Shown: positions 1 to 32,000, numbered from the stretch's first letter. The stretch is DNA of 32,000 bases from Sulfolobus acidocaldarius DSM 639 (GCF_000012285.1 NC_007181.1:360001-392000); one strand, 5' to 3'. Program-made: numbers and translations. Notes: generated by a model not told the origin, from the sequence alone.

Positions 1-1
1 C

Positions 2-874
2 ATGGCACTCTTCATATACGCTTTAGGCTATAATCCATTAGTCTGGAGAATACCTTCATGGATTTTAGGTGATCTCACAATTATTATTGCCTTTCTAATG
101 GCTAGAAAACTTATCGGAAACAATGTATTGGGAAATGTATCTGGGTTAATTGCATCTGTACTGATTGCATTAGACCCAAACATATGGGTTATGCACGGAA
201 TTGCTATGCTCGAGATATATGCTGGATTTTTCTCCCTCTTCACACTCTATCTTCTGCTCTCAGATAGAATAAAGTCGTCTTCTGTAGGTTTAGGTTTAGC
301 ATTCCTGGCTAAAGAGAGCTTGCTACCCCTTCTTATACCATACATATATTATCTAGGAGAGATAGTAAAACAACGTACCAAGAGAGTTATTTATGGGATA
401 CTTATTCCGGTAGCAATATACGTGGCTTTTTCAATACCATTAATTATCTATTTTGGTGGTATAAAACAATGGTTAGATGCGTCATTTCTGCACATGCTAA
501 GTTGGGATGTTACTAATGGGCACATTTCCCTTTCTGCAACAAACCAGATAAGTGCACCGTGGGATTGGTTCTTAGATATTCACCCATTTTTCTTAGGCTA
601 TGGACTATATGCTAATGTGAATCCGCTTCTAATGTGGGCTTGGGTCGTAACTACACCATTAGCCTTTATAATGAAAGACATTAAACTAATTATCTTCACC
701 ATGTCTGCATGGTCTATATGGCTGGGTTTTGTAGCCGTATACTTTCTGGGAAATCATACATTGTTCAGCTTCTATGTTACTGATTTTGCTACAATCTCAG
801 ATGTTTACGTGCCTATCTCATTATTTAAATTTCTTAACTGGATAGAACTAAGGAATAAGGGTGAAAATAATTGA
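2..874 (+). CDS. Polytopic membrane protein, C-terminal part; the gene very likely continues upstream of the window. Possible GT-C/PMT-like glycosyltransferase.
   Basis: The frame is open to the window edge. It has many hydrophobic helices and sits directly upstream of, and 4 nt overlapping with, the sugar-nucleotide genes of the agl3 cluster. The family assignment is only a guess from context and topology. Confidence 0.55.
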   Translation: MALFIYALGYNPLVWRIPSWILGDLTIIIAFLMARKLIGNNVLGNVSGLIASVLIALDPNIWVMHGIAMLEIYAGFFSLFTLYLLLSDRIKSSSVGLGLAFLAKESLLPLLIPYIYYLGEIVKQRTKRVIYGILIPVAIYVAFSIPLIIYFGGIKQWLDASFLHMLSWDVTNGHISLSATNQISAPWDWFLDIHPFFLGYGLYANVNPLLMWAWVVTTPLAFIMKDIKLIIFTMSAWSIWLGFVAVYFLGNHTLFSFYVTDFATISDVYVPISLFKFLNWIELRNKGENN

Positions 875-1644
875 TCGAGAAGGCTGTTATTACCGCAGCA
901 GGTAAGGGAAGTAGAATGAAATACATAACTACAGTGCTTCCAAAGGCACTTTTACCTCTTTTTAGTAGTGAAAATGGAGATCTAATTACGAGACCTGTTA
1001 TAGATCTTATTTTTGATTCTTTGTCTTCTGTTGGAGTTAAAAAGTTCTGTATAGTTGTTGGAAAACATGGAAAATTATTGATGGACTATCTATTTGATAT
1101 GGGGGTTACTTTTGTATTTCAACCTCATCCGAAAGGGTTCGGTGATGCAGTATTAAAAGCTGAAGACTTCTCTAGTAACGACCCATTCATAGTTCATGCT
1201 GATGATGGAGTATTAACAGGAGGGTATAAGGAGGCTGTCTCACTTTTTGATGAGGTAAAACCAGATGCTGTGCTTTTACTTAGAGAAGTTAAGAATCCTA
1301 AGAGATATGGTATAGTTGATGTTAAAGATGAAGGAGAGTATATGGGGCATAAAATGTATAGAGTGATTGAAGCTCAAGAAAAACCCCAAAATCCTAGGTC
1401 AAACATAGGTATATCTGCTGTATACATATTTTCTCCAAAAATATTTCAGGGTTTGAATAAGGTTAAAGTAGAGGAGGGAAAAGAGCTCGAACTAACATAC
1501 GGAATTCAAAATATCATAAGCGAAGGCGGTGAGGTATATGGAATTCTGTTGAAAGATGAAAAATGGTTAAATGTAGGAGATCCAGTAAGTTATATCGACG
1601 CTTTAAACCTCACTTACTCTTTTCATGTTAAGAAGTATCAGTGA
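871..1644 (+). CDS. Sugar-1-phosphate nucleotidylyltransferase (glucose-1-phosphate uridylyl/thymidylyltransferase family)
   Basis: N-terminal AVITAAGKGSRM...LPKALLP signature of NTP-transferase (GlmU/RmlA-like) enzymes. The TTG start overlaps the upstream stop by 4 nt. The gene is adjacent to the UDP-sulfoquinovose synthase gene. Confidence 0.8.
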   Translation: MIEKAVITAAGKGSRMKYITTVLPKALLPLFSSENGDLITRPVIDLIFDSLSSVGVKKFCIVVGKHGKLLMDYLFDMGVTFVFQPHPKGFGDAVLKAEDFSSNDPFIVHADDGVLTGGYKEAVSLFDEVKPDAVLLLREVKNPKRYGIVDVKDEGEYMGHKMYRVIEAQEKPQNPRSNIGISAVYIFSPKIFQGLNKVKVEEGKELELTYGIQNIISEGGEVYGILLKDEKWLNVGDPVSYIDALNLTYSFHVKKYQ

Positions 1645-1678
1645 TTTTCCAAGAACGATCAAGAAATCAAGTAAAAAG

Positions 1679-1694
1679 ATAAATCATGATTTAT
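1679..1694. repeat. Perfect 16-bp palindrome ATAAATCATGATTTAT between convergent genes
   Basis: Read directly from the sequence: the reverse complement of ATAAATCA is TGATTTAT. It lies in the 52-nt gap between the stop at 1644 (+) and the stop at 1697 (-). Confidence 0.6.
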
Positions 1695-1696
1695 GT

Positions 1697-2878
1697 TTAT
1701 CTTACTCTTTTAACGTATTGTGGTTTTCTCCATTTAGTCTTTGGCAATATAACATGCTTAAATCTCTCTAACCTAGTCTTATAAGGTAGTAGATCCTTTA
1801 TCATTATTTTAACATCCTCAGGTAATCTCTTTTTAGGATAAAATCCTAAGGATGGCAACACTTTCCTCTCAGGGTTGTAGTAATGCTCTTCCGCCTCCAC
1901 TCTAGGATTTTCGTATGAACCTATTTCCACATTTAATCCTAGCTCCTCTCCAGCCTTCTTTACAAATTCAGCTATTTTCTTAACACTATATATCTCTGCA
2001 AACTGATTAGCAACTCTATATTCCCCTTGTTTAGGAGGATTCTCCAAGAGCAAGGTTAATGCTTGGATACTGTCCTCTAATGATATAAATCCTCTAGTTT
2101 GACCACCCTTTCCATAAACTGTTAGTGGAAGCCCGAGGATGGCTTCTACACAATATCGATTAACCACAGTTCCCCAAACCTCGTCAAAGTCAAACCTAGT
2201 CCTCAGTGTTTCCTCCACAATCTCTTCTGTTCTAGTACCGTATACAGGACCTTGCATTATATCAGTGACAGTGAGCCCGTAAAGTTCTTGGAAATGAAGA
2301 AGAAAATCAGTATCATGAACCTTAGTCCAGTGATAAACAGAACCCGCTTTTCTAGGAACTATTATCTTATCTTTCTTACCATTAACTATAGCTTCAACAT
2401 ATATACTCTCAGGTATATCGAAAGCAGGTGTTCCATACTCACCCATGGTACCCATCTTCAATATATGTATTGTTGGATCTACCTCCAATACAGCTTGGAT
2501 AACTCTCAAAGTGCTTACCTCATTATTTATAACTGTGTAGACCGCGTGATCCATGTCTATCATAGAGTACGGAGCAGATCTCTGCTCAGCGAAGTGCACT
2601 ATGGCATCAGGTTTATATCTCTGTACTATGTCCTTAAAGAATCCATAATTAGTAATATCCCCCACGTAAAAGGTTATGTCTACACCCAAATGTTTCTTTG
2701 CCTCACTCACCCTCTCCTGTGGTTGAGGCAAAGGAAAAGCTGAATCTGACCCAACCTCTTCTGAAAACCTCCTTGTCGACAAGTTATCGATACCAATTAC
2801 CTCATGACCTCTTTTAGCTAACCTTAATGCCAATGGCCATCCTAAATGACCATCAATTCCTAGTACTAGAATCCTCAT
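1697..2878 (-). CDS. agl3: UDP-sulfoquinovose synthase (SQD1-like NAD-dependent epimerase/dehydratase), Agl3
   Basis: N-terminal Rossmann motif MRILVLGIDGHLGWPLALRL and an SDR-type YxxxK region. The 393 aa length and extended inserts are typical of SQD1. The neighbourhood (membrane protein, NDP-sugar pyrophosphorylase, BadF-type kinase) matches what I recall of the published S. acidocaldarius agl3 locus. Confidence 0.8.
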   Translation of the reverse strand: MRILVLGIDGHLGWPLALRLAKRGHEVIGIDNLSTRRFSEEVGSDSAFPLPQPQERVSEAKKHLGVDITFYVGDITNYGFFKDIVQRYKPDAIVHFAEQRSAPYSMIDMDHAVYTVINNEVSTLRVIQAVLEVDPTIHILKMGTMGEYGTPAFDIPESIYVEAIVNGKKDKIIVPRKAGSVYHWTKVHDTDFLLHFQELYGLTVTDIMQGPVYGTRTEEIVEETLRTRFDFDEVWGTVVNRYCVEAILGLPLTVYGKGGQTRGFISLEDSIQALTLLLENPPKQGEYRVANQFAEIYSVKKIAEFVKKAGEELGLNVEIGSYENPRVEAEEHYYNPERKVLPSLGFYPKKRLPEDVKIMIKDLLPYKTRLERFKHVILPKTKWRKPQYVKRVR

Positions 2879-2890
2879 TACGCTTCGAGA

Positions 2891-2907
2891 ATATTTATAT
2901 TATATAG
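2891..2907. promoter_or_regulatory. Compact bidirectional promoter: overlapping TATA boxes for agl3 (-) and the BadF-type kinase (+)
   Basis: The divergent start codons at 2878 and 2924 are only 45 nt apart. The A/T block ATATTTATATTATATAG lies about 25-30 nt from both starts, the expected archaeal TATA position for leaderless transcripts. Confidence 0.5.
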
Positions 2908-2923
2908 ATTAATAAATGTAATC

Positions 2924-3823
2924 ATGATTATAGTTGGCATAGACGCAGGAGGAACAAAGACTAAGGCAGTAGCTTACACTTGTGACGGTCAATATATAGG
3001 CGAGGGGGAAACAGGACCAGGCAATTATCATAACGTAGGATTAAGTAAGGCAATTAACAACATAAGGGAGGCTGCCCTTAAGGCAACAAAAGGAGAAGAA
3101 CCTGATGTAATATCAATTGGAGCTGCAGGGTTAGATTCGAGATATGATTATGAAAGTTTTAACTCCTTAGCGTCAACTGTAGCTAAAAAAGTTATAGTAA
3201 ACCACGATGGAGTTATAGCCCTTTTTGCAGAAACATTAGGAGAGAAAGGTGTAGTAGTAATCTCTGGGACTGGAAGTGTAGTGGAGGGATACGATGGAAA
3301 GGATTTCCACAGAATTGGTGGAAGAGGATGGTTACTCTCTGATGTAGGATCAGCCTATTGGGTTGGTAGAAGAGCATTAAGGGCTGTTTTAGAGGTAATG
3401 GATGGTCTTAGGCAAAAGAGTAACTTATATTATAAAGTTTTAGAGAAAATTAGAGTAAAAGACTTAGATGATCTTGTGCTTTGGTCCTATACTAGCAGTT
3501 GTCAGGCGGACATAATAGCCTCAGTCGCTGAGGCTGTAAACAGCTCCGCACTCACAGGTGACGAACTGGCAATCAGTATTTTGAAGGAAGGTGCGGAGAA
3601 GTTAGCAAATCAAGCTGTCCTAATGGCTAGAAGATTAAACGTTAACACTGTATATATGAAGGGAGGAATGTTTAAGTCACCAATCTACTTAGCAACATTT
3701 AAGAACTATTTATCGTTGTACGGGATCAAAGGAGAAGTAGGAAAAAGAAATCCTGAATTAGGAGCTATGGTCATAGCATTCAAGGAATTAGGGTGCAGTA
3801 TAGAAAAGTTACTGAACGGATAA
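2924..3823 (+). CDS. BadF/BadG/BcrA/BcrD-type ATPase, sugar (glucose/N-acetylglucosamine-like) kinase
   Basis: ASKHA-fold phosphate-1 motif MIIVGIDAGGTKTK and a later ISGTGS motif. Part of the agl3 cluster. Confidence 0.7.
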   Translation: MIIVGIDAGGTKTKAVAYTCDGQYIGEGETGPGNYHNVGLSKAINNIREAALKATKGEEPDVISIGAAGLDSRYDYESFNSLASTVAKKVIVNHDGVIALFAETLGEKGVVVISGTGSVVEGYDGKDFHRIGGRGWLLSDVGSAYWVGRRALRAVLEVMDGLRQKSNLYYKVLEKIRVKDLDDLVLWSYTSSCQADIIASVAEAVNSSALTGDELAISILKEGAEKLANQAVLMARRLNVNTVYMKGGMFKSPIYLATFKNYLSLYGIKGEVGKRNPELGAMVIAFKELGCSIEKLLNG

Positions 3824-5248
3824 GCTTACACCCTCACTCCTTAAGTCAGCTACTGCATAGTATCTATCGCTTTTCCTCTTCAGAGCTTGAACTACCCCTA
3901 CCTCAGGTGTGAAATAGTCAAGTTGCTGGAAAGGCAAATTCAACCTCTTCTCAGCTACAATCTTATCGCTCAATAATATGAATCTCGGAGCATTAACAGC
4001 CTCATCAATCTCCATGTTGTAATCAGCATAATACTGAAACACTTCAGCATGAATTTGAGGTCTAAGATCTCCACCAGCACATCCTATAAACAAGCTCTCG
4101 TCGTCTTTTTCTGCGTAGAGTATTGATAAGGTGTGCAATGGTCTCTTTCTGGGTTCTGGTTTGTTATTTCCTTCTGTAAATCCAAACCCCCTGTTATTAA
4201 ACGGAAACTGTTTCACAGTGATTCCTGATCCGAAATGGAAAAATAGACTTTGTATGAAACCAACTTCATTTTCGCCATCTGCTACCACAAAGAAAGTTGT
4301 GTCCTCAGTTCTCAGTATACGGTTAGGTAATATACCCATCTCTCTCAATTTTACTCTTAATACGTTTTCATCTAATAGGTTAATTTCCGGTGAGTAAAAA
4401 CGAGGGTCAGTAACATATCTGTCCCTATCATTATATCCAATTGCAAAGATTTTCACCATCTCTTTTACTCTTTCTATATCGTCAAACTTATGCTTCCATG
4501 TTTCCACCATTTCAGACAACTTAAGTATCTCAAGAGTCGTTATGCCTTGGCTATTAGGAGGAAGTTCATAAAGTGTGAAATCCCTATAAGTAGATTTTAT
4601 AGGTTTAACCTCCTCACCCCTGAAATTGGCGAAATCAGAAAACTCCATTTCTACACCCTGTTTATTTAAGCCCAGGACTATTTCTTCCATTAGTTTGCCT
4701 TCATAAAACTCTCTAGGATTTCTAGAAATTACTTTCAGTGCTTCTCCTAGTTCTCTAAGTTTAATGAAGTCCCCAGCCATTCTGCCTTTGTACAGTTTAG
4801 ACCAACTTTCAGGCATATCAATGGCTCTAGATATGGCTCTCCCCAGCTCTTTTCCTATGTAGAAACCATTTGTAGCTAACTTTACAGCTGGTTGCAAAAC
4901 AGTCTGCAAGTCTAAGCTCATGAATTTCCTCTCTATGTAATCCCACATGTCCACTAACCCAGGAACTAAAACTGTTGATGGGTGTCTAGGGCTCGGTATT
5001 TTTTGAATCTTCAGATTTTTTGAAGTCCACCCTGAAGCGTTATAAGCTATCAAACCCTCAGGGGTATTTGCCAAGAGAAAACCATCTCCGCCCAGTCCAC
5101 TAGTGTAGGGTAAAACAACCGAAAGAACTGCGCTTACTCCTACAGCTGCATCAAATGCATTTCCGCCCGTTTCAAGTATCTTAGCACCAACATATGTAGC
5201 CAACTGATTTTGACTAGCAACCACTTTTTTACCTATACTAACTTTCAT
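3809..5248 (-). CDS. ggt: Gamma-glutamyltranspeptidase (short archaeal type)
   Basis: GLGGDGFLL motif, a candidate autoprocessing threonine in EDTTFFVVAD, and a C-terminal GGD..RPQ motif. 479 aa. Confidence 0.8.
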   Translation of the reverse strand: MKVSIGKKVVASQNQLATYVGAKILETGGNAFDAAVGVSAVLSVVLPYTSGLGGDGFLLANTPEGLIAYNASGWTSKNLKIQKIPSPRHPSTVLVPGLVDMWDYIERKFMSLDLQTVLQPAVKLATNGFYIGKELGRAISRAIDMPESWSKLYKGRMAGDFIKLRELGEALKVISRNPREFYEGKLMEEIVLGLNKQGVEMEFSDFANFRGEEVKPIKSTYRDFTLYELPPNSQGITTLEILKLSEMVETWKHKFDDIERVKEMVKIFAIGYNDRDRYVTDPRFYSPEINLLDENVLRVKLREMGILPNRILRTEDTTFFVVADGENEVGFIQSLFFHFGSGITVKQFPFNNRGFGFTEGNNKPEPRKRPLHTLSILYAEKDDESLFIGCAGGDLRPQIHAEVFQYYADYNMEIDEAVNAPRFILLSDKIVAEKRLNLPFQQLDYFTPEVGVVQALKRKSDRYYAVADLRSEGVSLSVQ

Positions 5249-5285
5249 ACCATGTTATTTTTTATCCAAAAGTAAATAAGAGAAT

Positions 5286-5651
5286 ATGATGGAAATTCCA
5301 GAGAATGTCAAAAAGGAACTAAAAGATGGCGTTTGTGTAGCCTGTTGCGATAACATTGTTATATGCATGAGTGAAGATCTGCCCACGAACCCCAATGCAG
5401 ATACAGATCTTGAAGTGGATAGGGAAGGTGGTGAAATAATAATTAGACACATAATTAAGGATAATCCTGATAATCCCTTATATTTAGAATATCCTGCAGA
5501 CAGGAAGTTTGTAGAAAATGTTAGTAAAGCGAACGGAAGCGTAAAAATATTCTTTGTAGATCAAAAGTTCAATGAAAAGTCAACATTCATAGTGAAGCTA
5601 AATAAAGAAGACTTAAGATTACTAAGGAGGGAAATTGGTCTTGGACCTTAA
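5286..5651 (+). CDS. Hypothetical protein (121 aa) with a Cys-rich VCVACCD segment
   Basis: The ORF has plausible composition and overlaps the downstream MazG-like gene by 17 nt on the same strand. I recognise no family. Confidence 0.5.
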   Translation: MMEIPENVKKELKDGVCVACCDNIVICMSEDLPTNPNADTDLEVDREGGEIIIRHIIKDNPDNPLYLEYPADRKFVENVSKANGSVKIFFVDQKFNEKSTFIVKLNKEDLRLLRREIGLGP

Positions 5652-5886
5652 GTACATCCAGGAAAAGATGAAAGAGCTTTATTACGTTAAGGATTCAGAG
5701 AGAGGAGTATACGCTACTTTTACGTGGTTGGTAGAAGAGGTTGGGGAACTAGCTGAAGCACTATTATCAAAAAATAAGGATTCGTTAGAAGAAGAGTTGG
5801 CTGACGTTTTAGCGTGGACTGTGTCAGTAGCTAACCTAGTAGGAATAGATTTGGAAGAAGCTTTAAGGAAGAAATACCACATATAA
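5635..5886 (+). CDS. Small MazG-like nucleoside triphosphate pyrophosphohydrolase
   Basis: EEVGELAEAL ... EELADVLAWTVSVAN, the EExxE/ExxD helix pair of all-alpha NTP pyrophosphatases. TTG start at 5635 (or 5641). The stop codon directly abuts the tmcA ATG. Confidence 0.75.
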   Translation: MVLDLKYIQEKMKELYYVKDSERGVYATFTWLVEEVGELAEALLSKNKDSLEEELADVLAWTVSVANLVGIDLEEALRKKYHI

Positions 5887-8208
5887 ATGATGGAAAAAAA
5901 GGAATTCTTTGAAATTCTAAGGAACTCAATGTTAGATAGTAAGGATAGATATTACAGAAATTTAGTATTTATTCAAGATGAATCGGATATTTTACGTCAT
6001 GTTTTAGAAGTTTTACAGCTTTACTTAGACATAAATCCAGATCCCCTTATAGCATATGCATTTCATCCCTGGGCTAAGGGGGCTAAGGATAGACTTGAGG
6101 AACTAAGAAAGATTGTTAAAAATAGCGAGAAACTCATAGATATCGATTACTCAAGCTCTGAAAGATATCTAGGTTCTACTTTTGATGTTGCTATTCTAGA
6201 TTTAGTAGATAACTTTGAACCCAATCACATAGGTAGATTAGTGGATTTAGTAAGAGGTGGCGGATTAATAATACTTTACACAAACGACTTAAAGAATAAT
6301 AAGATATTTAAAAATTCTATCCTTAGGGAGGGAAAGGTACTTGATGTTTATGAAACGAGATTTATAAGAAAACTAACCGAGCATGAGGGCATCTTCGTCA
6401 TATCTAACTCCGAATACTACGCAAAGCCTTTTAAGGGTGAGGTGAAGGAAAAACCCTCACCACAATTACCTAAAAAGCCTACAATGCCAGTAGAGTTGCA
6501 TTCCTTATGCCTTAGCTCTGATCAAAACAAAGTTTTAGAGTCATTTATCGGAATGAGATACGGATCAAGAAAAGTTCTAGTTATAACGGCTTCTAGAGGA
6601 AGAGGTAAAAGTGCGGTAACTGGACTAGGTATGGCAGGTCTAATATTTAAACATGGCTTTAGAAAGGGACGAAAATACAAGATAATAGTTACTGCACCTT
6701 CAATAGCAAGCTCTTCACAGACTATGGAATTCCTCAAGAGAGGTCTTGACGCATTGGGAGTAGAATACAGGGAAAAAAGATCTCCTATGGGGTTCATAAA
6801 TAGCCTTGAAGGAGAAGGATTCAGAGTATTTTTTGAGATACCTGAAGCTACTTTAGAGCATGAGGGTGATTTACTTGTCGTGGATGAGGCAGCAGCGATA
6901 GGTATTGGGTATATTGATTCAGCTCTCAAGACATGGAAAAAGGTCGTTCTCGTAACGACTGTTCACGGTTATGAAGGTTCAGGTAAAGCATTCCTAAGAT
7001 ACCTAAATAGATTGCTTAAACAGAGAAAAACTACAGTGTATTGGGAGGAAATGAGAAAACCTCTAAGGTATGCTGAAGGCGATCCTATTGAGAAATGGTT
7101 GTACGATTCGTTATTACTTGATGCAGAACCGGAGGATGTGCAACAAGAGATCGATAAAGTGTATTTCGAAACCTTAGACAAGGAAGAGTTATTCTCAGAT
7201 GATCGTAAATTGAGGCAAGTTTATGGAATTTTGGTCACAGCTCATTACAGAAATAATCCCAATGACCTGATGATAATGGGAGATGGGATTCATCATACAA
7301 TAAAGGGATTAAGTATTGAGGGCACGAATAGTTACATAGGAGTAGTACAGATAGCTAATGAGGGAGGTTTATCTGATGAGCTAATACATTCAGCATTAAT
7401 GGGTGTGACATTTGATGGAGATCTTATACCAGATAGAATGATAAAACACTCTAGGCTGATAGAATTCGGAAAGATGAAAGGATGGAGAATTGTAAGAATA
7501 GCAGTAATGCAAGAACTACAGGACAAGGGATTCGGAAGCCAGATGTTAGAGATGATAATCGAAGATGCTAAGAGGCAGGAAATTGATTGGGTTGGATCCT
7601 CATTTATGGGAGATATGAGAGTACTTAATTTCTGGATTAGAAACGGATTCTACCCTGTTCATGTTTCGCCCAAGAAAAATGAAAAACTTGGGGATTACCC
7701 TGTAATAGTAATAAAGCCTATAAGCGAAATTGCAACTAAGGCAGTAAGAGTAGCAGCATATGTATTGAAGGAAAAACTACTTAACACCTTACATGATGTT
7801 TACTTTTCCATGGACCCAGAAATTGCCCAAATAATACTCAGTGGTATAAAAGTTCATAAAGAAGTTAAGATAAACCCGATATACGTAGATAAAGCAGTAG
7901 CATTTCTTCAAGGAGTAAGCCCATATGAATCCTCAGCCGATGGGATTCACCTACTAGCGTTAAAATACTTTTGGGATGCTAAAAGGGAATGGTCCTTAGA
8001 GCCTGAACAAGAAATTTTACTAATAGCAAAAATACTGCAAGGCAGACCATGGAGATTTACTTCAGCCTCACTAAATTCGAATAGAACCGGAGTTAATGAA
8101 ATGTTATATCAGGCTATTGCCGAATTATTATACAGGTACTATTCCTTAAATAGTGAAACAAAAGTAGGAATTAGCTTAGATAAATTGGATGATGACCAAA
8201 TAGACTGA
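5887..8208 (+). CDS. tmcA: RNA cytidine acetyltransferase (tRNA(Met) cytidine acetyltransferase TmcA / Nat10 homolog)
   Basis: 773 aa. Central helicase-type Walker A (ASRGRGKSA) and Walker B (LLVVDEAAAI), followed by a GNAT acetyl-CoA motif (QDKGFGSQM). This is the architecture characteristic of TmcA/Nat10. Confidence 0.85.
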   Translation: MMEKKEFFEILRNSMLDSKDRYYRNLVFIQDESDILRHVLEVLQLYLDINPDPLIAYAFHPWAKGAKDRLEELRKIVKNSEKLIDIDYSSSERYLGSTFDVAILDLVDNFEPNHIGRLVDLVRGGGLIILYTNDLKNNKIFKNSILREGKVLDVYETRFIRKLTEHEGIFVISNSEYYAKPFKGEVKEKPSPQLPKKPTMPVELHSLCLSSDQNKVLESFIGMRYGSRKVLVITASRGRGKSAVTGLGMAGLIFKHGFRKGRKYKIIVTAPSIASSSQTMEFLKRGLDALGVEYREKRSPMGFINSLEGEGFRVFFEIPEATLEHEGDLLVVDEAAAIGIGYIDSALKTWKKVVLVTTVHGYEGSGKAFLRYLNRLLKQRKTTVYWEEMRKPLRYAEGDPIEKWLYDSLLLDAEPEDVQQEIDKVYFETLDKEELFSDDRKLRQVYGILVTAHYRNNPNDLMIMGDGIHHTIKGLSIEGTNSYIGVVQIANEGGLSDELIHSALMGVTFDGDLIPDRMIKHSRLIEFGKMKGWRIVRIAVMQELQDKGFGSQMLEMIIEDAKRQEIDWVGSSFMGDMRVLNFWIRNGFYPVHVSPKKNEKLGDYPVIVIKPISEIATKAVRVAAYVLKEKLLNTLHDVYFSMDPEIAQIILSGIKVHKEVKINPIYVDKAVAFLQGVSPYESSADGIHLLALKYFWDAKREWSLEPEQEILLIAKILQGRPWRFTSASLNSNRTGVNEMLYQAIAELLYRYYSLNSETKVGISLDKLDDDQID

Positions 8209-20077: not shown

Positions 20078-20428
20078 ATGAGTATTGAAATTACTGAAAA
20101 ATATGTAATTTTAAAAAGATTCTTATCAGTAGCCTATGGTCTTTCTGAATCAGAAATAGACACATTTCTAAGGATACTTGAAAGCAAAGAAGGTAAGGAT
20201 ATTGATGCAATATCTGCAGAACTAAAAATTAGTAAAAGTAGAACAAGCATAATATTAAAGAAGCTTTCAGATGCAGGATTAGTTGATAAGGAAAAAGGAG
20301 ATAACATGAAGGGAGGAAGACCCAAGTACGTGTATAGTGTAAATAAAGAAGAACTGAAAAATAGATTAATAGCTAAGTCTGAGGAATTATGCAAAGAATT
20401 AAACCAAGTTATTAAGTCTTTTATTTAA
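20078..20428 (+). CDS. abfR1: Lrs14-family wHTH transcriptional regulator, probably biofilm/motility regulator AbfR1
   Basis: 116 aa wHTH ([25 protein letters not shown]) with a wing [10 protein letters not shown]. Counting from Met1 puts Tyr at 84 and Ser at 87, the two wing phosphosites I recall being reported for S. acidocaldarius AbfR1. Gene order relative to agl3 and cdvB1 also fits. Confidence 0.65.
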
Positions 20429-21127
20429 ATACTCCTTCAAAAAAGGAGTGTCCTCTATCTTTTCTTTCGTTAAGTATTCTATGTAAATACCCTTTGGTTT
20501 TTCTCTTTTATTTGTTGTATATACTACTTTGGTGGGCGTCACTATAATATCGACAGGAACGTCAAATACCTCAGTTGGAATTTCATCAACTATCTGAATA
20601 TCATGGATAGTTGTTACCACTGGAGTTGTTTCATCAATCTTTCCAATTTCCCTCAGTATAGCATATTCCAGCTCACTATAGCCTTCACCCTTTCCAACCC
20701 TATCTCCTCTTGAGGTTAAAGCCACTGAGCCTACTACTACAAGATCTACTTTGGGTATAGAATATATGTCTACTAACTCCCCTAAGTATATAAAACCTGA
20801 TATGGTTGAGGCTTTCTTATAATCACTGATTTTCGACGGATCCAAAAGATAGAAACCGCCCTTCAGTCTCGGTGTAGGTACTAGCACAGTTTTACCGTCA
20901 ATTAAAGCAAATTCTCTCACCCATCTTTGAGGAGAATCAGGATTTACCTTGAGTACTTTGGCTTTCCTGTATTCTACTATCTCTCTTAGTCTCAGCGCAG
21001 CCTCTTTAGATCCCTTGAAATTAGGAATTCTACCGAAAACAGGTCTCGGGAAAGATGCGATGTTCTTATCCTCCAGTAAACTCCAAATTTTCTCTCTTAT
21101 TTCAGCCTTAGATAAAATAATGAACAC
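20399..21127 (-). CDS. 5-formyltetrahydrofolate cyclo-ligase family protein
   Basis: N-terminal [10 protein letters not shown]...[12 protein letters not shown] and a central [11 protein letters not shown] resemble MTHFS-like proteins. 242 aa. Confidence 0.65.
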
Positions 21128-27671: not shown

Positions 27672-27672
27672 G

Positions 27673-27748
27673 GGCTCGGGCCGGGACTTGAACCCGGGAC
27701 CTATGGGTCCACAGCCCATCGCTCTAACCAGGCTGAGCTACCCGAGCC
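27673..27748 (-). tRNA. tRNA-His (anticodon GUG) with genome-encoded G-1; CCA not encoded
   Basis: Hand-folded cloverleaf: acceptor GCUCGGG/CCCGAGC, D stem GCUC/GAGC, anticodon stem AUGGG/CCCAU with loop CUGUGGA, variable loop AGGUC, T arm CCGGG-UUCAAGU-CCCGG. An extra 5' G pairs with discriminator C73, the His identity element. No intron. Confidence 0.92.
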
Positions 27749-29059: not shown

Positions 29060-29566
29060 ATGGAAATAACCGAGGATAGTAAGAGGAAAATCAATTATCA
29101 AATCAGGCTTGCGACATTATCAGACATAGACCAAATAATTAGGATAAATAGATCTGCACTACCCGAAAATTATCCATATTATTTTTTTGTTGAACATTTA
29201 AAGGAATATGGACAGGCATTTTATGTAGCTGACCTAGAAGGTGAAGTTGTTGGTTATGTCATGCCGAGAATAGAATGGGGATTTAGTAATCTTAAACACA
29301 TTCCGTCTCTAGTTAGAAAAGGTCATATAGTGTCTATTGCTGTTCTTGAACCCTTCAGAAAGATAGGTGTCGGCACATCACTTTTACAAAACTCTCTCAA
29401 AGCCATGAAAGATACATATAATGCTGAGGAAGTATATCTAGAAGTAAGAGTTACAAACTATCCTGCAATATCACTGTACAAGAAATTCAATTTCAGAGAA
29501 GTTAAACTCCTTAAACACTATTATGCAGACGGAGAAGATGCATACTTAATGGCTGCTCCTCTTTAA
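29060..29566 (+). CDS. ard1: N-terminal protein acetyltransferase (Ard1/RimI-type GNAT)
   Basis: GNAT acetyl-CoA motif RKIGVGTSLL and an N-terminal LPENYPYYFF segment resembling the characterised Sulfolobus Ard1. 168 aa. Confidence 0.7.
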   Translation: MEITEDSKRKINYQIRLATLSDIDQIIRINRSALPENYPYYFFVEHLKEYGQAFYVADLEGEVVGYVMPRIEWGFSNLKHIPSLVRKGHIVSIAVLEPFRKIGVGTSLLQNSLKAMKDTYNAEEVYLEVRVTNYPAISLYKKFNFREVKLLKHYYADGEDAYLMAAPL

Positions 29567-30019
29567 AATAATCTCGTTCATATTAGAATCGTAAATAACA
29601 TAGTACCCTTTTTCTCCGCTTCCAATAGATACTATTTTAGTTAAACCTAGATTGTATATCTTCTGAACTTCAGAATGACCATGAAATACAATCTTTGGGC
29701 TATTTGTGAGTATTTGGTTTCTAACTATCAACGATCCATACTCTAATCTAGGAGGAAAATGTGTAATAGTTATATTCGAAAAGTTAGTACTAAAAGTAAG
29801 GAAAGAAGACTCTATTAATTTACCTGTATTTTTCAAATACTTCATTGTAGTTATGTTGTCCATCTCCCCTAAAATACCATAAAAATCTCTTAAAAATTGT
29901 GGACACTCCACGTCACCTAAACCAACAACATAGTCCACATTCAAACTGTTTATTTTCTCTATCAGGGAATTTTCACACGGAAGTCTGGTTATAAGTGCCA
30001 TTATCGCCATAAAGAACAC
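29546..30019 (-). CDS. Small calcineurin-like metallophosphoesterase (YfcE/MJ0936-like) with a degenerate N-terminal motif
   Basis: Motif II (GLGD), motif IV (ITHFPP) and motif V (FHGHSE) are recognisable. The N-terminal DxH motif is absent and motif III GN is GE (ILGEMDN). It overlaps the upstream gene by 47 nt. Confidence 0.55.
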   Translation of the reverse strand: MFFMAIMALITRLPCENSLIEKINSLNVDYVVGLGDVECPQFLRDFYGILGEMDNITTMKYLKNTGKLIESSFLTFSTNFSNITITHFPPRLEYGSLIVRNQILTNSPKIVFHGHSEVQKIYNLGLTKIVSIGSGEKGYYVIYDSNMNEIILKRSSH

Positions 30020-30845
30020 CCAGTTCGTGAATAGCTATACCTACTGCAACTATATCTGCCGTAGAGCCAGGATTATATCCCCTAGAGACCAAATATTCAT
30101 CTAAAATACTCACCAATTTTTCATTACTCAAACATTGGCAAGCCAGTTTTGATACTTCCATTGCTATTCTTCCACCGTTTCTCCTAAATATTAACCCATC
30201 TGGTAATTCACATAAAACCTTTAAAAATCCCAATAGAATCCCTCTATCATACCCCTCCTGCTCAACAAGTTTTGCAACCCATAGAGAATATTTGTAGCCA
30301 TCCAACATATTTCTAACTGCACTATCAAAGGCTGATATCTTGAGAATTTCAAATAGGGAAAGATTATCATCTTGCTCTCTATAATCATATGCCCTATCTA
30401 ATTTACCCAAATAGCTTGGTTGCAATGTTTCCAGAGTCATCTTAAAATACCTAGATTCAATACTATCCAATGACCTAATTAGCTGTGTTGCTCTAAAAAT
30501 AAGTTGACCAATGGAGTCAGCTGAAGAGGAAGAATATGCTAAGGGTAGAAGTTGCATAGCAGTACCTAATATGGAAAAATTAACTTGCAGTGTTTTACTA
30601 ATTTTAGCCATCATGTACAAAAGATCATACAATGGCTTTTCCTGTGAGCTACCCCTTATACAAGCGGTTTTATAATAATTTGTTGAAAGTAATGCAGACT
30701 GTACAAGGTCCGAGAACTTGACACCTTTAATATCTCTTGTTCTTGAAGCGTTTCCAGGTTTGTAATATGATGCTTCTAAGACAGTGGCGTTAGAAAGGAT
30801 AAATGCTACTTTCTCACAATATTCTCCTAACTCTCCCTCCAACAT
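29973..30845 (-). CDS. CitG/MdcB-like triphosphoribosyl-dephospho-CoA synthase family protein
   Basis: Family-like motifs YYKPGNASR (compare KPGLVD), NFSILGTAMQLLPLA and a C-terminal NPGSTADIVAV (compare GGSADLLA). 290 aa. Confidence 0.65.
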   Translation of the reverse strand: MLEGELGEYCEKVAFILSNATVLEASYYKPGNASRTRDIKGVKFSDLVQSALLSTNYYKTACIRGSSQEKPLYDLLYMMAKISKTLQVNFSILGTAMQLLPLAYSSSSADSIGQLIFRATQLIRSLDSIESRYFKMTLETLQPSYLGKLDRAYDYREQDDNLSLFEILKISAFDSAVRNMLDGYKYSLWVAKLVEQEGYDRGILLGFLKVLCELPDGLIFRRNGGRIAMEVSKLACQCLSNEKLVSILDEYLVSRGYNPGSTADIVAVGIAIHELGVLYGDNGTYNQTSV

Positions 30846-31728
30846 TTCTATCGCCCACTATTACTTGACTGGAATTTTCACATTTCACAAGTAAGCCATC
30901 AACTTCTATTTTTCTCGAGGAGTATAATAGATAAGAATATATGCCCTCATATGAAACTAAATTGTCTACTTTTTCATCGCCTTCCACATGATACAGACTC
31001 ACTTTAGAAGGGTAAAATAATGCTTTACAATCAGGTTCTATTTCAGCCTTAATTTTAACTCTTTTATGAGTAGGAATGCACACATCTTCACAATATCTTT
31101 GAGGTTTATCATCTACAAATAAAATAGAATATTTTACGTTATTGTAATATTTGCCCCTAATTTTTCTAGTATATAATTTTTTAACTAAGTCTAATTCTAA
31201 GCCGTAATTCTTACTGGTTTCATAGATCCATTCCTCATCGTCATTGAAACCTTCAAAACTCTCAATCACATTCAATGATTCTTTGCATCCATATATTACG
31301 ATATCTAGATCAGAGAGTTCATGATAGGTGTTTGTAAGTAAACTGCCAGAGACTCCTAACCTAGATGTATGAATGTACTGAATTATTTCGAGGAGTGTAA
31401 GCTCTTGCTTACTCTGTGAGGGATGCTTTATTATTTCCCTTATTTTCTCTTCAGGCTTGAGGTGATTAGAAATTGCTGATTTTCTTAGTACGGGAAAGCT
31501 AACACCATAACAGCACTCATGGATAAACTCCTGCTTTACTTTTAGGACGTTATGAATCCCATAATATTTTAAAGCTCTCTCATATCCTTTCCATAATCCC
31601 TTACCAGTAAAAACGTACTTTAATATCGCGTAAATATATCCAAAGGGATTAATATTACTGTACACGTAGTATATGTTGTTATCCCTGTCTAGTACTAGAT
31701 CCTTGTCAAGGAAATAATCTCTTCCCAT
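30814..31728 (-). CDS. Pol-beta superfamily nucleotidyltransferase with a C-terminal beta-rich (OB-like?) domain
   Basis: Catalytic signature GVSGSLLTNTYHELSDLDIVIYG (G-S ... D-x-D). The 304 aa length and layout resemble the archaeal 'predicted nucleotidyltransferase' family. It overlaps the CitG-like gene by 32 nt. Confidence 0.6.
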   Translation of the reverse strand: MGRDYFLDKDLVLDRDNNIYYVYSNINPFGYIYAILKYVFTGKGLWKGYERALKYYGIHNVLKVKQEFIHECCYGVSFPVLRKSAISNHLKPEEKIREIIKHPSQSKQELTLLEIIQYIHTSRLGVSGSLLTNTYHELSDLDIVIYGCKESLNVIESFEGFNDDEEWIYETSKNYGLELDLVKKLYTRKIRGKYYNNVKYSILFVDDKPQRYCEDVCIPTHKRVKIKAEIEPDCKALFYPSKVSLYHVEGDEKVDNLVSYEGIYSYLLYSSRKIEVDGLLVKCENSSQVIVGDRNVGGRVRRIL

Positions 31729-32000
31729 CCCTTTAGCCTCACATGTGATAATGGAGTACCTGCACTTTTAAGGAAATCTATATATTTCCTGTAGATTCCA
31801 CCATAGAGAGAATTTGCTATATAAGCTGAACCTATGGCTGATTCTTTGAAAGGGAAAGAAAATTTCTTACCAAAATCTACATCCCACTTTCTCCTGCCAG
31901 AAACTATTATTGGGAGATCATATTTAGATGAATACCATTCAGAAATTATCCTGATTATTTCTACTCCTCTTTCCCAGTTACCTCCTGAATAAATTGTCTC
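31695..32000 (-). CDS. C-terminal part of an unidentified protein (gene start lies beyond the window); not in the supplied ORF track
   Basis: I translated an open minus-strand frame from the window edge: ...ETIYSGGNWERGVEIIRIISEWYSSKYDLPIIVSGRRKWDVDFGKKFSFPFKESAIGSAYIANSLYGGIYRKYIDFLKSAGTPLSHVRLKGWEEIISLTRI, with a TAG stop at 31695-31697. It overlaps the nucleotidyltransferase start by 34 nt. Confidence 0.5.
   Translation of the reverse strand, partial: ETIYSGGNWERGVEIIRIISEWYSSKYDLPIIVSGRRKWDVDFGKKFSFPFKESAIGSAYIANSLYGGIYRKYIDFLKSAGTPLSHVRLKGWEEIISLTRI

What the first reader, a model, noticed from the sequence alone, without database searches (positions are those of the whole stretch)
29546..32000. 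Orphan CitG-like + pol-beta nucleotidyltransferase + phosphoesterase operon with no lyase or ACP partner
Seen in sequence: four minus-strand genes overlap one another by 34, 32 and 47 nt, which implies one translationally coupled operon. In order they are an unknown protein, a 304-aa GS...DxD nucleotidyltransferase, a 290-aa CitG/MdcB-like protein and a 157-aa metallophosphoesterase. Established knowledge: in bacteria CitG/MdcB make 2'-(5''-triphosphoribosyl)-3'-dephospho-CoA from ATP, releasing adenine. A dedicated transferase (CitX/MdcG, reported to carry a nucleotidyltransferase-type signature) then attaches this group to a serine of the lyase/decarboxylase ACP. Here the same enzyme pairing logic appears, but no citrate lyase, malonate decarboxylase or ACP gene is in the window. 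Inference: this could be an uncharacterised archaeal system that builds an alpha-ribosyl-linked group and installs it on an unknown protein, RNA or cofactor acceptor, with the phosphoesterase trimming the triphosphate. An alternative is a role in the ribosyl-phosphate side chain of the methanopterin-like pterin of Sulfolobales. I recall CitG homologs being genetically tied to H4MPT biosynthesis in methylotrophs, but that is unverified memory. coaBC lies 530 nt away, which may be coincidental.
Basis: partly seen in the sequence, partly recalled or inferred. Interest (0 to 1): 0.78.

Follow-up and report, generated by a model that had tools for sequence, protein, structure and literature searches.

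The report
Candidate methanopterin-type cofactor side-chain operon
This Sulfolobus acidocaldarius operon pairs a CitG-like ribosyl transferase with an uncharacterised nucleotidyltransferase, and in other microbes the same pair sits inside methanopterin biosynthesis gene clusters, so it probably builds the ribosyl-phosphate tail of Sulfolobus's folate-like cofactor, steps for which I know of no assigned enzyme.

Summary
Four overlapping minus-strand genes of Sulfolobus acidocaldarius encode the end of a DUF1464 (ASKHA-type) protein, a 304-aa pol-beta nucleotidyltransferase, a 290-aa CitG-family protein (Pfam E 3e-42) and a roughly 151-157-aa protein with a degenerate metallophosphoesterase fold.

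The pair is not an orphan. CitG-like and this nucleotidyltransferase family ("NTase-OB") are neighbours in at least five different gene arrangements. These are Sulfolobales, a Thermoprotei MAG, an uncultured Cdv-encoding lineage (34 of 36 informative loci), and contigs L102 and L103. Elsewhere they lie next to beta-RFAP synthase, DHPS-like MptH, AfpA/DmrX-like flavoprotein, DUF447, MptA, MptE-like and PTPS, or among Fwd/Ftr/Mtd/Mer genes.

Proposed mechanism, inferred only: the CitG-like enzyme puts a 5-triphospho-alpha-ribosyl group from ATP onto the ribitol hydroxyl. NTase-OB then joins the alpha-phosphate to an alcohol and releases pyrophosphate, as MdcB/MdcG do.

coaBC proximity is order-specific synteny. 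The phosphoesterase-like and DUF1464 genes are lineage-restricted. No biochemistry exists. This is a new variant of a known logic, of moderately high interest.

The parts
31695..32000 (-). 3' end (last 101 codons) of a 300-aa DUF1464 / ASKHA-type putative ATPase or kinase gene. It continues beyond the window end. Its stop overlaps the next gene by 34 nt.
   Evidence: Pfam PF07318 E 3.2e-28. The full gene is seen in L001 9132-10034. It is syntenic in 9 of 10 Sulfolobales loci. A homologue sits between a nucleotidyltransferase homologue and a beta-RFAP synthase family gene in an MSBL1 archaeon.
30814..31728 (-). 304-aa 'NTase-OB' gene: an N-terminal beta-rich domain, a pol-beta nucleotidyltransferase core (G128-S129...S139-D140-x-D142) and a C-terminal OB-like barrel. 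It is the candidate phosphodiester-forming transferase.
   Evidence: NTP_transf_2 at 32.5 bits against a cutoff of 21. Motif residues are invariant in alignments A1 and A3. AlphaFold model pLDDT 92, pTM 0.90. Only domain-level PDB matches, to OB folds and TUTase. Relatives lie in H4MPT clusters.
29973..30845 (-). 290-aa CitG-like (Orf7-type) gene, a putative ATP-dependent triphosphoribosyl transferase. It overlaps the nucleotidyltransferase gene by 32 nt.
   Evidence: Pfam CitG E 3.3e-42. No CitG or MdcB equivalog match. Family motifs are retained. PDB 3H9P at E 1.8e-8. Adjacent to NTase-OB homologues in several lineages.
29546..30019 (-). 151-157-aa protein with a divergent metallophosphoesterase fold; likely start at about 30010 or about 30001. 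It is the last gene of the operon and its 3' end overlaps the convergent GNAT gene by 21 nt.
   Evidence: Sub-threshold Metallophos_2 and Metallophos_3 hits. Profile hit to PDB 2KKN at E 3.2e-7. Conserved GLGDxECPQ, GExM[DE], THF and HGHS motifs, but no DxH, GNHD or GHxH. Found next to the CitG-like gene only in Sulfolobales.

Best explanation
The operon encodes late steps in building the side chain of the methanopterin-type C1 carrier of Sulfolobales (sulfopterin), not a citrate-lyase or malonate-decarboxylase prosthetic group.

Proposed mechanism:
1. The CitG-like enzyme, the counterpart of methylotroph Orf7, uses ATP. It displaces adenine with inversion and attaches a 5-triphospho-alpha-D-ribofuranosyl group to a hydroxyl of the aminophenyl-ribitol pterin intermediate.
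2. NTase-OB treats this triphosphoribosyl intermediate like an NTP. An alcohol attacks the alpha-phosphate and pyrophosphate leaves, giving a phosphodiester. In methanopterin the alcohol is hydroxyglutarate. In sulfopterin the tail group is unknown to me. This is the chemistry MdcG and CitX perform on ACP serine.
3. The DUF1464 ASKHA protein and the degenerate phosphoesterase-like protein are lineage-specific helpers. Possible roles are a kinase or ATPase step, and dephosphorylation of the ribitol 5'-phosphate or handling of pyrophosphate or triphosphate.

Shown: family memberships, operon structure, and conserved linkage to H4MPT genes. Inferred: the substrates, ATP as the ribosyl donor, and the order of steps.
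For: Conserved pairing of CitG-like and NTase-OB:
- The pair is adjacent in at least five different arrangements.
- Sulfolobales: NTase then CitG, overlapping, in 9 of 10 loci.
- Thermoprotei MAG: FdhD, CitG, NTase with a 32-nt overlap; hhalign probability 99%, E 2.7e-18.
- Uncultured Cdv-encoding lineage: divergent CitG | ECF-S - NTase. CitG lies within 3 kb in 34 of 36 loci that have enough upstream sequence.
- L103: CitG | NTase - DUF447 - beta-RFAP synthase.
- L102: both genes in one cluster about 6.5 kb apart.

Links to known H4MPT genes:
- L102: NTase - AfpA/DmrX-like - DHPS-like (TIGR00284) - NTase - DUF447 - beta-RFAP synthase. CitG lies next to an MptA/FolK fusion (TIGR00294, 308.9 against a cutoff of 220) and PTPS.
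- MSBL1 L019: NTase, DUF1464 and a beta-RFAP synthase family gene (TIGR00144, 163.8 against 113.5).
- Asgard L020: MptE-like, PTPS, DUF447, NTase.
- L021: Mtd, Mer, two NTases, Ftr.
- Uncultured lineage: FwdA, FwdB and FwdD beside CitG.

Sequence features:
- The Sulfolobus CitG-like protein and its 145 nearest relatives are not CitG or MdcB equivalogs. They keep the family motifs.
- The nucleotidyltransferase catalytic motif is invariant.

Literature:
- The CitG-annotated orf7 lies in the mch-orf5-orf7-fae1 island (PMC3615186, PMC11533326).
- Sulfolobus uses sulfopterin (PMC3697235, PMC3432047) and has group-1 RFAP synthase homologues (PMC6787355).

Chemistry, from established knowledge:
- Methanopterin has an alpha-ribofuranosyl 5-phosphate on the ribitol, esterified to hydroxyglutarate.
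- CitG chemistry (EC 2.4.2.52) yields exactly an alpha-5-triphosphoribosyl O-glycoside from ATP.
- Pol-beta nucleotidyltransferases attack alpha-phosphates and release pyrophosphate.
Against: - There is no biochemical or genetic test for any of these four Sulfolobus genes.
- No pterin gene is adjacent in the S. acidocaldarius window itself. The nearest is a 5-formyl-THF cyclo-ligase family gene about 8.4 kb away.
- Several CitG-like relatives (L016-L018) and nucleotidyltransferase relatives (L003, L010) are not adjacent to each other.
- As I recall it, White's 1996 pathway scheme names PRPP, not ATP, as the ribosyl donor.
- Some 'H4MPT' orfs of methylotrophs turned out to be methylofuran genes (PMC8141765), so neighbourhood alone cannot say which C1 cofactor is served.
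- The nucleotidyltransferase has an OB-like domain, which usually binds nucleic acids. It has no invariant third carboxylate and no match to the CitX or MdcG families.
- Organisms with two to four paralogs are not explained by a single phosphodiester step.
- I did not have the structure of the sulfopterin tail to hand.
Confidence: 0.72

Rival explanations
1. The module serves another cofactor of the same C1 pathway rather than the methanopterin-type pterin. Candidates are methanofuran/methylofuran, the molybdo- or tungstopterin guanine dinucleotide of formylmethanofuran dehydrogenase, or an F420-like phosphodiester.
For: - CitG-like lies directly beside fwdD, fwdB and fwdA, and MobB is nearby, in the uncultured lineage.
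- FdhD precedes CitG in L014.
- Divergent CofE-like genes lie beside the nucleotidyltransferase in L014 and L021.
- MfnB-, MfnE- and MfnF-like genes flank it in L020 and L102.
- orf5, orfY and orf17, once linked to H4MPT, proved to be methylofuran genes (PMC8141765).
Against: - The tightest partners are methanopterin-specific: beta-RFAP synthase, DHPS-like MptH, DUF447, AfpA/DmrX-like, MptA and MptE-like.
- To my knowledge methanofuran has no ribose or phosphate, and Sulfolobales lack the methanofuran pathway. The latter was not tested here.
- Sulfolobales do make an RFAP-derived pterin (PMC6787355, PMC3697235).
- The alpha-ribosyl-5-phosphate of methanopterin fits CitG chemistry uniquely.
Confidence: 0.12
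2. This is a macromolecule-modifying system. The CitG-like enzyme makes a triphosphoribosyl donor, and NTase-OB installs it on a protein or on RNA or tRNA.
For: - The C-terminal OB-like barrel gives its best, though weak, PDB matches to SSB and RPA OB folds.
- The Zestosphaera homologue lies between a B3_4-domain protein and AspRS, away from CitG.
- MdcG and CitX modify a protein serine (established knowledge).
Against: - Apart from the Zestosphaera B3_4/AspRS case above, no tRNA, RNA or acceptor-protein gene recurs beside the pair in about 100 loci.
- The recurrent neighbours are small-molecule cofactor genes and an ECF-type S component resembling folate-family transporters.
- Foldseek E-values were all 0.1 or higher, so the OB assignment is at fold level only.
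Confidence: 0.08
3. This is a classical CitG function. It makes 2'-(5''-triphosphoribosyl)-3'-dephospho-CoA for an ACP encoded elsewhere, and the nearby coaBC reflects a CoA link.
For: - The Pfam CitG match is strong.
- coaBC lies 530 nt away and is syntenic within Sulfolobales.
Against: - There is no hit to the CitG or MdcB equivalog models, even at E 0.1.
- The relatives score far below the equivalog cutoffs.
- coaBC is separated by an oppositely oriented gene and is never adjacent outside Sulfolobales.
- No lyase, decarboxylase, ACP, CitX or MdcG family was seen in the window or in any locus table.
Confidence: 0.03

Closest known systems
MdcB/CitG plus MdcG/CitX (prosthetic-group synthesis for malonate decarboxylase and citrate lyase ACP)
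   Same: It has the same two-enzyme logic: a CitG-family protein next to a pol-beta-type nucleotidyltransferase. The CitG family motifs are retained. The predicted chemistry is also the same: ATP gives an alpha-5-triphosphoribosyl O-glycoside plus adenine, then an alcohol attacks the alpha-phosphate and pyrophosphate is released.
   Different: The CitG-like protein is not an equivalog of CitG or MdcB. The nucleotidyltransferase does not match the CitX or MdcG Pfam families and has extra N-terminal and OB-like domains. No ACP or lyase genes are present. The neighbours are pterin and C1-cofactor genes, so the acceptor is probably a small molecule, not dephospho-CoA or a protein serine.
Orf7, the 'H4MPT-linked C1 transfer pathway protein' of methylotrophic bacteria (mch-orf5-orf7-fae island)
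   Same: It is a CitG-family protein associated with H4MPT genes and has no assigned reaction (PMC3615186, PMC11533326). L102 shows the same ATP-grasp then CitG order, embedded in a full H4MPT/methanofuran cluster.
   Different: Identity between the Sulfolobus protein and a bona fide Orf7 sequence was not measured here. The classical methylotroph islands, as described in the papers read, list no NTase-OB partner. That fits their dephospho-H4MPT, which lacks the phosphate and hydroxyglutarate (PMC8141765). This absence was not tested directly.
Phosphodiester-forming cofactor tailoring pairs such as CofC/CofD (F420) and CobU/CobS (cobalamin)
   Same: They also use nucleotidyl-transfer chemistry to build a phosphodiester in a cofactor side chain. 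This is an analogy from established knowledge.
   Different: In those systems the phosphate is activated by GMP or AMP transfer, and a second enzyme displaces the nucleotide. Here the triphosphate would arrive already attached to the ribosyl group through the CitG-like step. The protein families are unrelated.

Membership tests
CitG/MdcB triphosphoribosyl-dephospho-CoA synthase (PF01874; EC 2.4.2.52) | Full-length match to the family profile | tested here: met
   PF01874 at E 3.3e-42, 145.5 bits against a cutoff of 27. Residues 17-273 align to profile positions 4-284 of 284.
CitG/MdcB triphosphoribosyl-dephospho-CoA synthase (PF01874; EC 2.4.2.52) | Match to the curated isofunctional models (TIGR03125 citG, TIGR03132 mdcB, NF002315) | tested here: not met
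   No NCBIfam hit at E 0.1 or lower. Among the 145 nearest relatives the best E-values are only 1e-18 to 1e-22, and examples score 44-66 bits against cutoffs of 272-282.
CitG/MdcB triphosphoribosyl-dephospho-CoA synthase (PF01874; EC 2.4.2.52) | Conserved family motifs (E..KPGN, N..G..P, D, PD, NPGxxAD) | tested here: met
   In the 145-sequence alignment A6, D216, G260 and D264 are invariant. E24, K29, P30, G31, N90, G94, P101, D174, N258 and P259 are at least 90% conserved. All are present in the window protein.
CitG/MdcB triphosphoribosyl-dephospho-CoA synthase (PF01874; EC 2.4.2.52) | Genomic partners: citrate lyase or malonate decarboxylase, their ACP, and CitX or MdcG | tested here: not met
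   None appears among the window proteins scanned or in the gene tables of the loci inspected. The rest of the genome could not be searched.
CitG/MdcB triphosphoribosyl-dephospho-CoA synthase (PF01874; EC 2.4.2.52) | Adenine release from ATP with dephospho-CoA as acceptor | not testable with these tools
   This needs an enzyme assay.
Pol-beta superfamily nucleotidyltransferase | hG[GS]-x9-13-Dh[DE]h signature and a profile match | tested here: met
   NTP_transf_2 at 32.5 bits against a cutoff of 21. G125, G128, S129, S139, D140 and D142 are invariant across 25 diverse homologues.
Pol-beta superfamily nucleotidyltransferase | Third catalytic carboxylate on a later strand | tested here: inconclusive
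   No further invariant acidic column appears in A3. The LFVDD region varies between D, N and K.
CitX/MdcG holo-ACP synthase (phosphoribosyl-dephospho-CoA transferase) | Sequence membership in the CitX or MdcG families | tested here: not met
   The Pfam scan at E 0.1 or lower lists only NTP_transf_2, Polbeta and DUF2540. There are no NCBIfam hits and no PDB sequence hits.
Calcineurin-like metallophosphoesterase (YfcE/MJ0936 type) | Profile or fold match | tested here: inconclusive
   Metallophos_2 scores 22.8 against 27 and Metallophos_3 scores 23.3 against 28.2, both below cutoff. A family profile hits PDB 2KKN at E 3.2e-7, and LpxH and aq_1956 weakly.
Calcineurin-like metallophosphoesterase (YfcE/MJ0936 type) | Canonical metal-binding motifs DxH, GDxxD, GNH[DE], H, GHxH | tested here: not met
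   The DxH position reads ITRxPC. GD is present but followed by E-C. GNHD is replaced by GEM[DE]. GHxH is replaced by HGHS[ED].
Methanopterin (H4MPT-type cofactor) biosynthesis gene set | Conserved neighbourhood with known H4MPT biosynthesis genes (mptG, the DHPS-like MJ0301 family, mptA, mptE, afpA/dmrX) | tested here: met
   This holds for homologues of the CitG-like and NTase-OB genes in L019, L020, L102 and L103. It does not hold in the S. acidocaldarius window itself.
Methanopterin (H4MPT-type cofactor) biosynthesis gene set | Loss or alteration of the cofactor on gene inactivation; defined reaction in vitro | not testable with these tools
   This needs genetics and LC-MS. The papers I could read gave no reaction for orf7.
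DUF1464 (PF07318, ASKHA-type) | Profile match | tested here: met
   E 3.2e-28 for the 101-aa fragment in the window. The full-length 300-aa gene is labelled PF07318 in L001. The MSBL1 homologue scores E 3.6e-89.

The most novel reading that the evidence does not exclude
The CitG-like enzyme and the NTase-OB family are the missing enzymes for the last side-chain steps of methanopterin-type cofactors. On this reading ATP, not PRPP, donates the alpha-ribosyl group as a 5-triphosphate. NTase-OB then uses that 'base-swapped NTP' directly to form the phosphodiester to hydroxyglutarate, or to the sulfopterin-specific tail. This would be a CitG/CitX-type prosthetic-group pathway repurposed for a small-molecule coenzyme across archaea and some bacteria.
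Probability: 0.4. Interest if true: 0.8.

Novelty: new variant of a known kind. Interest (0 to 1): 0.66.

Why it matters
To my knowledge, several late steps of methanopterin biosynthesis have had no assigned enzymes since the pathway was outlined in the 1990s. These are dephosphorylation of the ribitol phosphate, addition of the alpha-ribosyl 5-phosphate, and attachment of hydroxyglutarate. Methanopterin-type cofactors underlie methanogenesis, anaerobic methane oxidation, bacterial methylotrophy and C1 metabolism in Sulfolobales.

This finding names two concrete candidate enzymes: CitG-like/Orf7 and an unannotated three-domain nucleotidyltransferase family. It also gives a chemically specific, testable order of reactions, in a genetically tractable host, S. 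acidocaldarius.

If correct, three things follow. The many archaeal genes annotated 'triphosphoribosyl-dephospho-CoA synthase' would need re-annotation. The ribosyl donor in the textbook pathway would change. New targets for methanogen inhibitors would become available.

Tried and rejected
1. coaBC link. coaBC and the GNAT gene are syntenic only within Sulfolobales. They are absent from the roughly 90 other loci. Rejected as functional evidence.

2. Conserved trio with the phosphoesterase. No MPE-like homologue was found outside Sulfolobales. Rejected as a core component.

4. Genome-collection scan with the nucleotidyltransferase alignment. It returned only 10 loci: nine labelled Sulfolobales or related taxa and one labelled Methanobacteriota with the same four-gene block. 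It was too narrow to test distribution. The first metagenome scan attempt failed because the alignment was too diverse.

5. Literature.
- No paper in the library links CitG, 'triphosphoribosyl' and methanopterin mechanistically.
- The key 2005 J Bacteriol papers, Maden 2000, and the ids tried for two de Crecy-Lagard papers (one id recalled from memory) were not held.
- I therefore could not confirm what is published on the orf7 mutant phenotype or the sulfopterin tail structure.

6. Bacterial promoter and terminator scan. It is not meaningful for an archaeon and was ignored.

7. Upstream 218-aa and 171-aa ORFs beyond the window. They have no family matches and are poorly conserved. They are not counted as part of the module.

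8. DUF1464 against PDB. No significant hit.

Full report
**1. Observation**

The window is Sulfolobus acidocaldarius. The 304-aa protein is 100% identical to a protein named from that species.

Four minus-strand ORFs lie at 29546-30019, 29973-30845, 30814-31728 and 31695 to beyond 32000.

The last gene more likely starts at an internal ATG, which gives an overlap of 38 or 29 nt.

In the full genome the cut gene is a 300-aa DUF1464 protein. Two further co-oriented ORFs without family matches lie upstream, and one of them overlaps the DUF1464 start by 4 nt.

**2. What the four proteins are**

- The 290-aa protein is a full-length CitG-family member (PF01874, E 3.3e-42).
  - It matches none of NCBI's isofunctional CitG or MdcB models, even at E 0.1.
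  - An exhaustive HMMER search of 1.84 billion representatives found only 225 relatives at E 0.001 or lower.
  - The nearest named relatives outside Sulfolobales are Thermoprotei, Desulfurococcaceae and Geothermarchaeota.
  - The 145 nearest relatives hit the CitG and MdcB models only weakly. They keep the family's conserved motifs.
  - The only solved relative by sequence is 3H9P, deposited as a 'putative triphosphoribosyl-dephospho-CoA synthase' (E 1.8e-8).
- The 304-aa protein has the pol-beta nucleotidyltransferase signature, invariant across homologues.
  - A confident AlphaFold model (pLDDT 92) shows three domains: an N-terminal beta-rich domain, the nucleotidyltransferase core and a C-terminal OB-like barrel.
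  - Nothing in the PDB matches the whole chain. I call this family NTase-OB.
- The upstream fragment is DUF1464. It has weak similarity to butyrate kinase and to methanogenesis marker 12.
- The last protein has a metallophosphoesterase-type fold: sub-threshold Pfam hits and a profile hit to 2KKN at E 3e-7.
  - It lacks the DxH motif. GNHD reads GEM[DE] and GHxH reads HGHS[ED], with two invariant cysteines instead.
  - Calling it a phosphoesterase is therefore uncertain.

**3. Is the gene set co-conserved?**

Within Sulfolobales, the block DUF1464 - NTase - CitG - MPE-like occurs in 9 of 10 loci, together with the GNAT and CoaBC genes. One Sulfolobaceae MAG (L010) instead has the nucleotidyltransferase between a GGACT gene and a 5-formyl-THF cyclo-ligase family gene.

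Outside the order, CoaBC, GNAT and the MPE-like gene are never adjacent. DUF1464 is adjacent only once.

The CitG-like/NTase-OB pair does recur, in different arrangements:

- A Thermoprotei MAG has FdhD - CitG - NTase with a 32-nt overlap. The order is reversed relative to Sulfolobus.
  - A divergently oriented CitG-like gene lies within 3 kb in 34 of the 36 loci with enough upstream sequence.
  - Two more nucleotidyltransferase paralogs lie downstream in 40 of 47 loci.
  - These 80 loci belong to one related lineage (57-100% identity), so they count as one further lineage, not 80 independent observations.
- Some CitG-like genes (L016-L018) and nucleotidyltransferase genes (Zestosphaera L003) stand alone.

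**4. What the neighbours say**

| Locus | Source | Arrangement |
|---|---|---|
| L019 | MSBL1 archaeon | NTase, DUF1464, beta-RFAP synthase family gene (above the TIGR00144 cutoff) |
| L020 | Asgard archaeon | MptE-like, PTPS, DUF447, NTase, beside MfnD-, MfnE- and MfnF-like genes |
| L021 | Metagenome contig | Two tandem NTases between Mtd/Mer and Ftr, with Fwd subunits nearby |
| L022-L101 | Uncultured Cdv-encoding lineage | CitG-like directly upstream of fwdD, fwdB and fwdA; an ECF-type S component upstream of NTase 1 in 54 loci |
| L103 | Metagenome contig (archaeal Cdc6 and Rio2) | CitG \| NTase - DUF447 - beta-RFAP synthase |
| L102 | Metagenome contig (ECF sigma factor, so probably bacterial) | One cluster, listed below |

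The ECF-type S component in the uncultured lineage weakly resembles the folate-family S components (42.6 bits, below the cutoff of 60).

The L102 cluster reads: ATP-grasp - CitG-like - MptA/FolK - PTPS - His_biosynth - ATP-grasp - Hydantoinase_A - AA_kinase - MfnB | NTase - AfpA/DmrX-like - DHPS-like - NTase - DUF447 - beta-RFAP synthase.

Beta-RFAP synthase catalyses the first committed step of methanopterin synthesis (PMC6787355). The nucleotidyltransferase family and the CitG-like family therefore belong to the H4MPT gene neighbourhood in unrelated lineages.

**5. Literature**

- The methylotroph island mch-orf5-orf7-fae1 is described in PMC3615186.
- In Methylomonas DH-1, consecutive locus tags are annotated mch, alpha-L-glutamate ligase and 'triphosphoribosyl-dephospho-CoA synthase' (PMC11533326). 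Orf7 is therefore a CitG homologue.
- The papers I could read give no reaction for orf7. orf5, orfY and orf17 were reassigned to methylofuran (PMC8141765).
- Methanogens also carry an annotated CitG (PMC7386643).
- Sulfolobus uses the modified folate sulfopterin (PMC3697235, PMC3432047) and has group-1 RFAP synthase homologues (PMC6787355).
- No paper in the searchable library links CitG chemistry to methanopterin. Several key papers were not held.

**6. Mechanism (inference)**

Methanopterin carries an alpha-D-ribofuranosyl 5-phosphate on the ribitol 5-hydroxyl, and the phosphate is esterified to hydroxyglutarate (established knowledge).

CitG chemistry converts ATP, a beta-N-glycoside, into an alpha-O-glycoside by inversion and leaves a 5-triphosphate. 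A pol-beta nucleotidyltransferase would then let an alcohol attack the alpha-phosphate with loss of pyrophosphate. This is exactly what MdcG and CitX do to ACP serine.

This route yields both the alpha linkage and the phosphodiester without a separate activation step. PRPP, which is alpha at C1, would need retention of configuration.

Methylotrophs make dephospho-H4MPT, which lacks the phosphate and hydroxyglutarate (PMC8141765). As far as I could see they have Orf7 but no NTase-OB, which fits the model. That absence was not tested.

The MPE-like protein could remove the ribitol 5'-phosphate or process the triphosphate. The DUF1464 ASKHA protein may supply a kinase or ATPase step. Both roles are guesses.

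Unexplained points:

- A rough NJ tree shows at least two nucleotidyltransferase subfamilies, A and B. L021 and L102 have both, and Sulfolobus has a B-like one.
- The uncultured lineage carries three to four paralogs.
- The function of the OB-like domain is unknown.

**7. Comparison and verdict**

The module works like MdcB/MdcG but is not a member of those isofunctional families. The CitG-like protein fails the equivalog models, and the nucleotidyltransferase fails the CitX and MdcG families. The protein partners that define those systems are absent.

It is best filed as the Sulfolobus version of an H4MPT-type cofactor side-chain module that includes the Orf7 family. The previously unannotated NTase-OB family is a new candidate component.

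- Confidence that the operon serves the methanopterin-type cofactor: about 0.7.
- Confidence in the specific two-step mechanism: about 0.4.
- Novelty: a new variant of a known kind.
- Interest is moderately high, because the finding makes long-missing biosynthetic steps directly testable.

Noticed in passing
L022-L101 (e.g. L022 6073-11120; L059 6942-11095): In an uncultured Cdv-encoding archaeal lineage, three NTase-OB paralogs (four in L065) sit together: one on the + strand and two tandem on the - strand. An ECF-type S component (PF07155; weak, sub-threshold resemblance to the folate-family S-component model) lies directly upstream of the first in 54 loci. This might indicate salvage or uptake of a pterin or folate-like precursor.
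   Followed up: partly
L014 9983-10891 (-); L021 10335-11174 (-): A divergent CofE-like protein lies next to the NTase-OB genes in two unrelated loci. It matches PF01996 F420_ligase but scores far below the CofE equivalog cutoff. It may be another member of the module. DUF166 is also adjacent in L014.
   Followed up: no
L017 5733-7963; L018 6568-7936: In two CitG-like loci without an adjacent nucleotidyltransferase, the CitG-like gene overlaps the end of a type III RuBisCO large-subunit gene by 25 nt (L017). It follows a CTP-dependent riboflavin kinase gene in L018, and the same family lies two genes away on the opposite strand in L017. A link to ribose-bisphosphate or nucleoside salvage, or to flavins, is conceivable but unexplored.
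   Followed up: no
window 20399-21127 (-); L010 7495-9675: A 5-formyltetrahydrofolate cyclo-ligase family gene lies about 8.4 kb from the operon in the window. In Sulfolobaceae MAG L010 the same family sits immediately after the NTase-OB gene, with a GGACT gene before it and no CitG-like gene adjacent.
   Followed up: partly
L102 1-13527: This contig has an ECF sigma factor and a putative anti-sigma gene, so it is probably bacterial. It carries a near-complete H4MPT plus methanofuran biosynthesis cluster that includes a CitG-like gene and two NTase-OB paralogs. The nucleotidyltransferase family is therefore not restricted to archaea.
   Followed up: partly
L001 versus L002, locus positions 1-7000 (beyond the window end at 32000): Two S. 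acidocaldarius genomes differ just upstream of the operon region. One has an SSV-type integrase with SSV1_D-63-like and other small ORFs. The other has VirArc_Nuclease, PAPS_reduct and DUF87 genes. Both are followed by the same VapBC pair. This looks like a strain-variable integration spot.
   Followed up: no
window 29546-29566 and 29060-29566 (+): A RimI/Ard1-type GNAT acetyltransferase gene (TIGR01575, 92.9 against a cutoff of 86.4) converges on the operon and overlaps its last 21 nt. It separates the operon from coaBC.
   Followed up: yes
window 27672-27747 (-): tRNA-His (GTG) lies directly downstream of coaBC.
   Followed up: no
L003 9267-11041: In Zestosphaera the NTase-OB homologue (34% identity) is not next to a CitG-like gene. 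It follows a B3_4-domain protein and precedes AspRS, and an ECF S component and ribose-5-phosphate isomerase are nearby. This is the one context that hints at a tRNA-related role.
   Followed up: partly
L001 7914-9135 (beyond the window end): Two co-oriented ORFs without any family match (218 aa and 171 aa) precede the DUF1464 gene. The second overlaps its start by 4 nt. They are conserved only weakly, in close relatives (L004, L005).
   Followed up: partly
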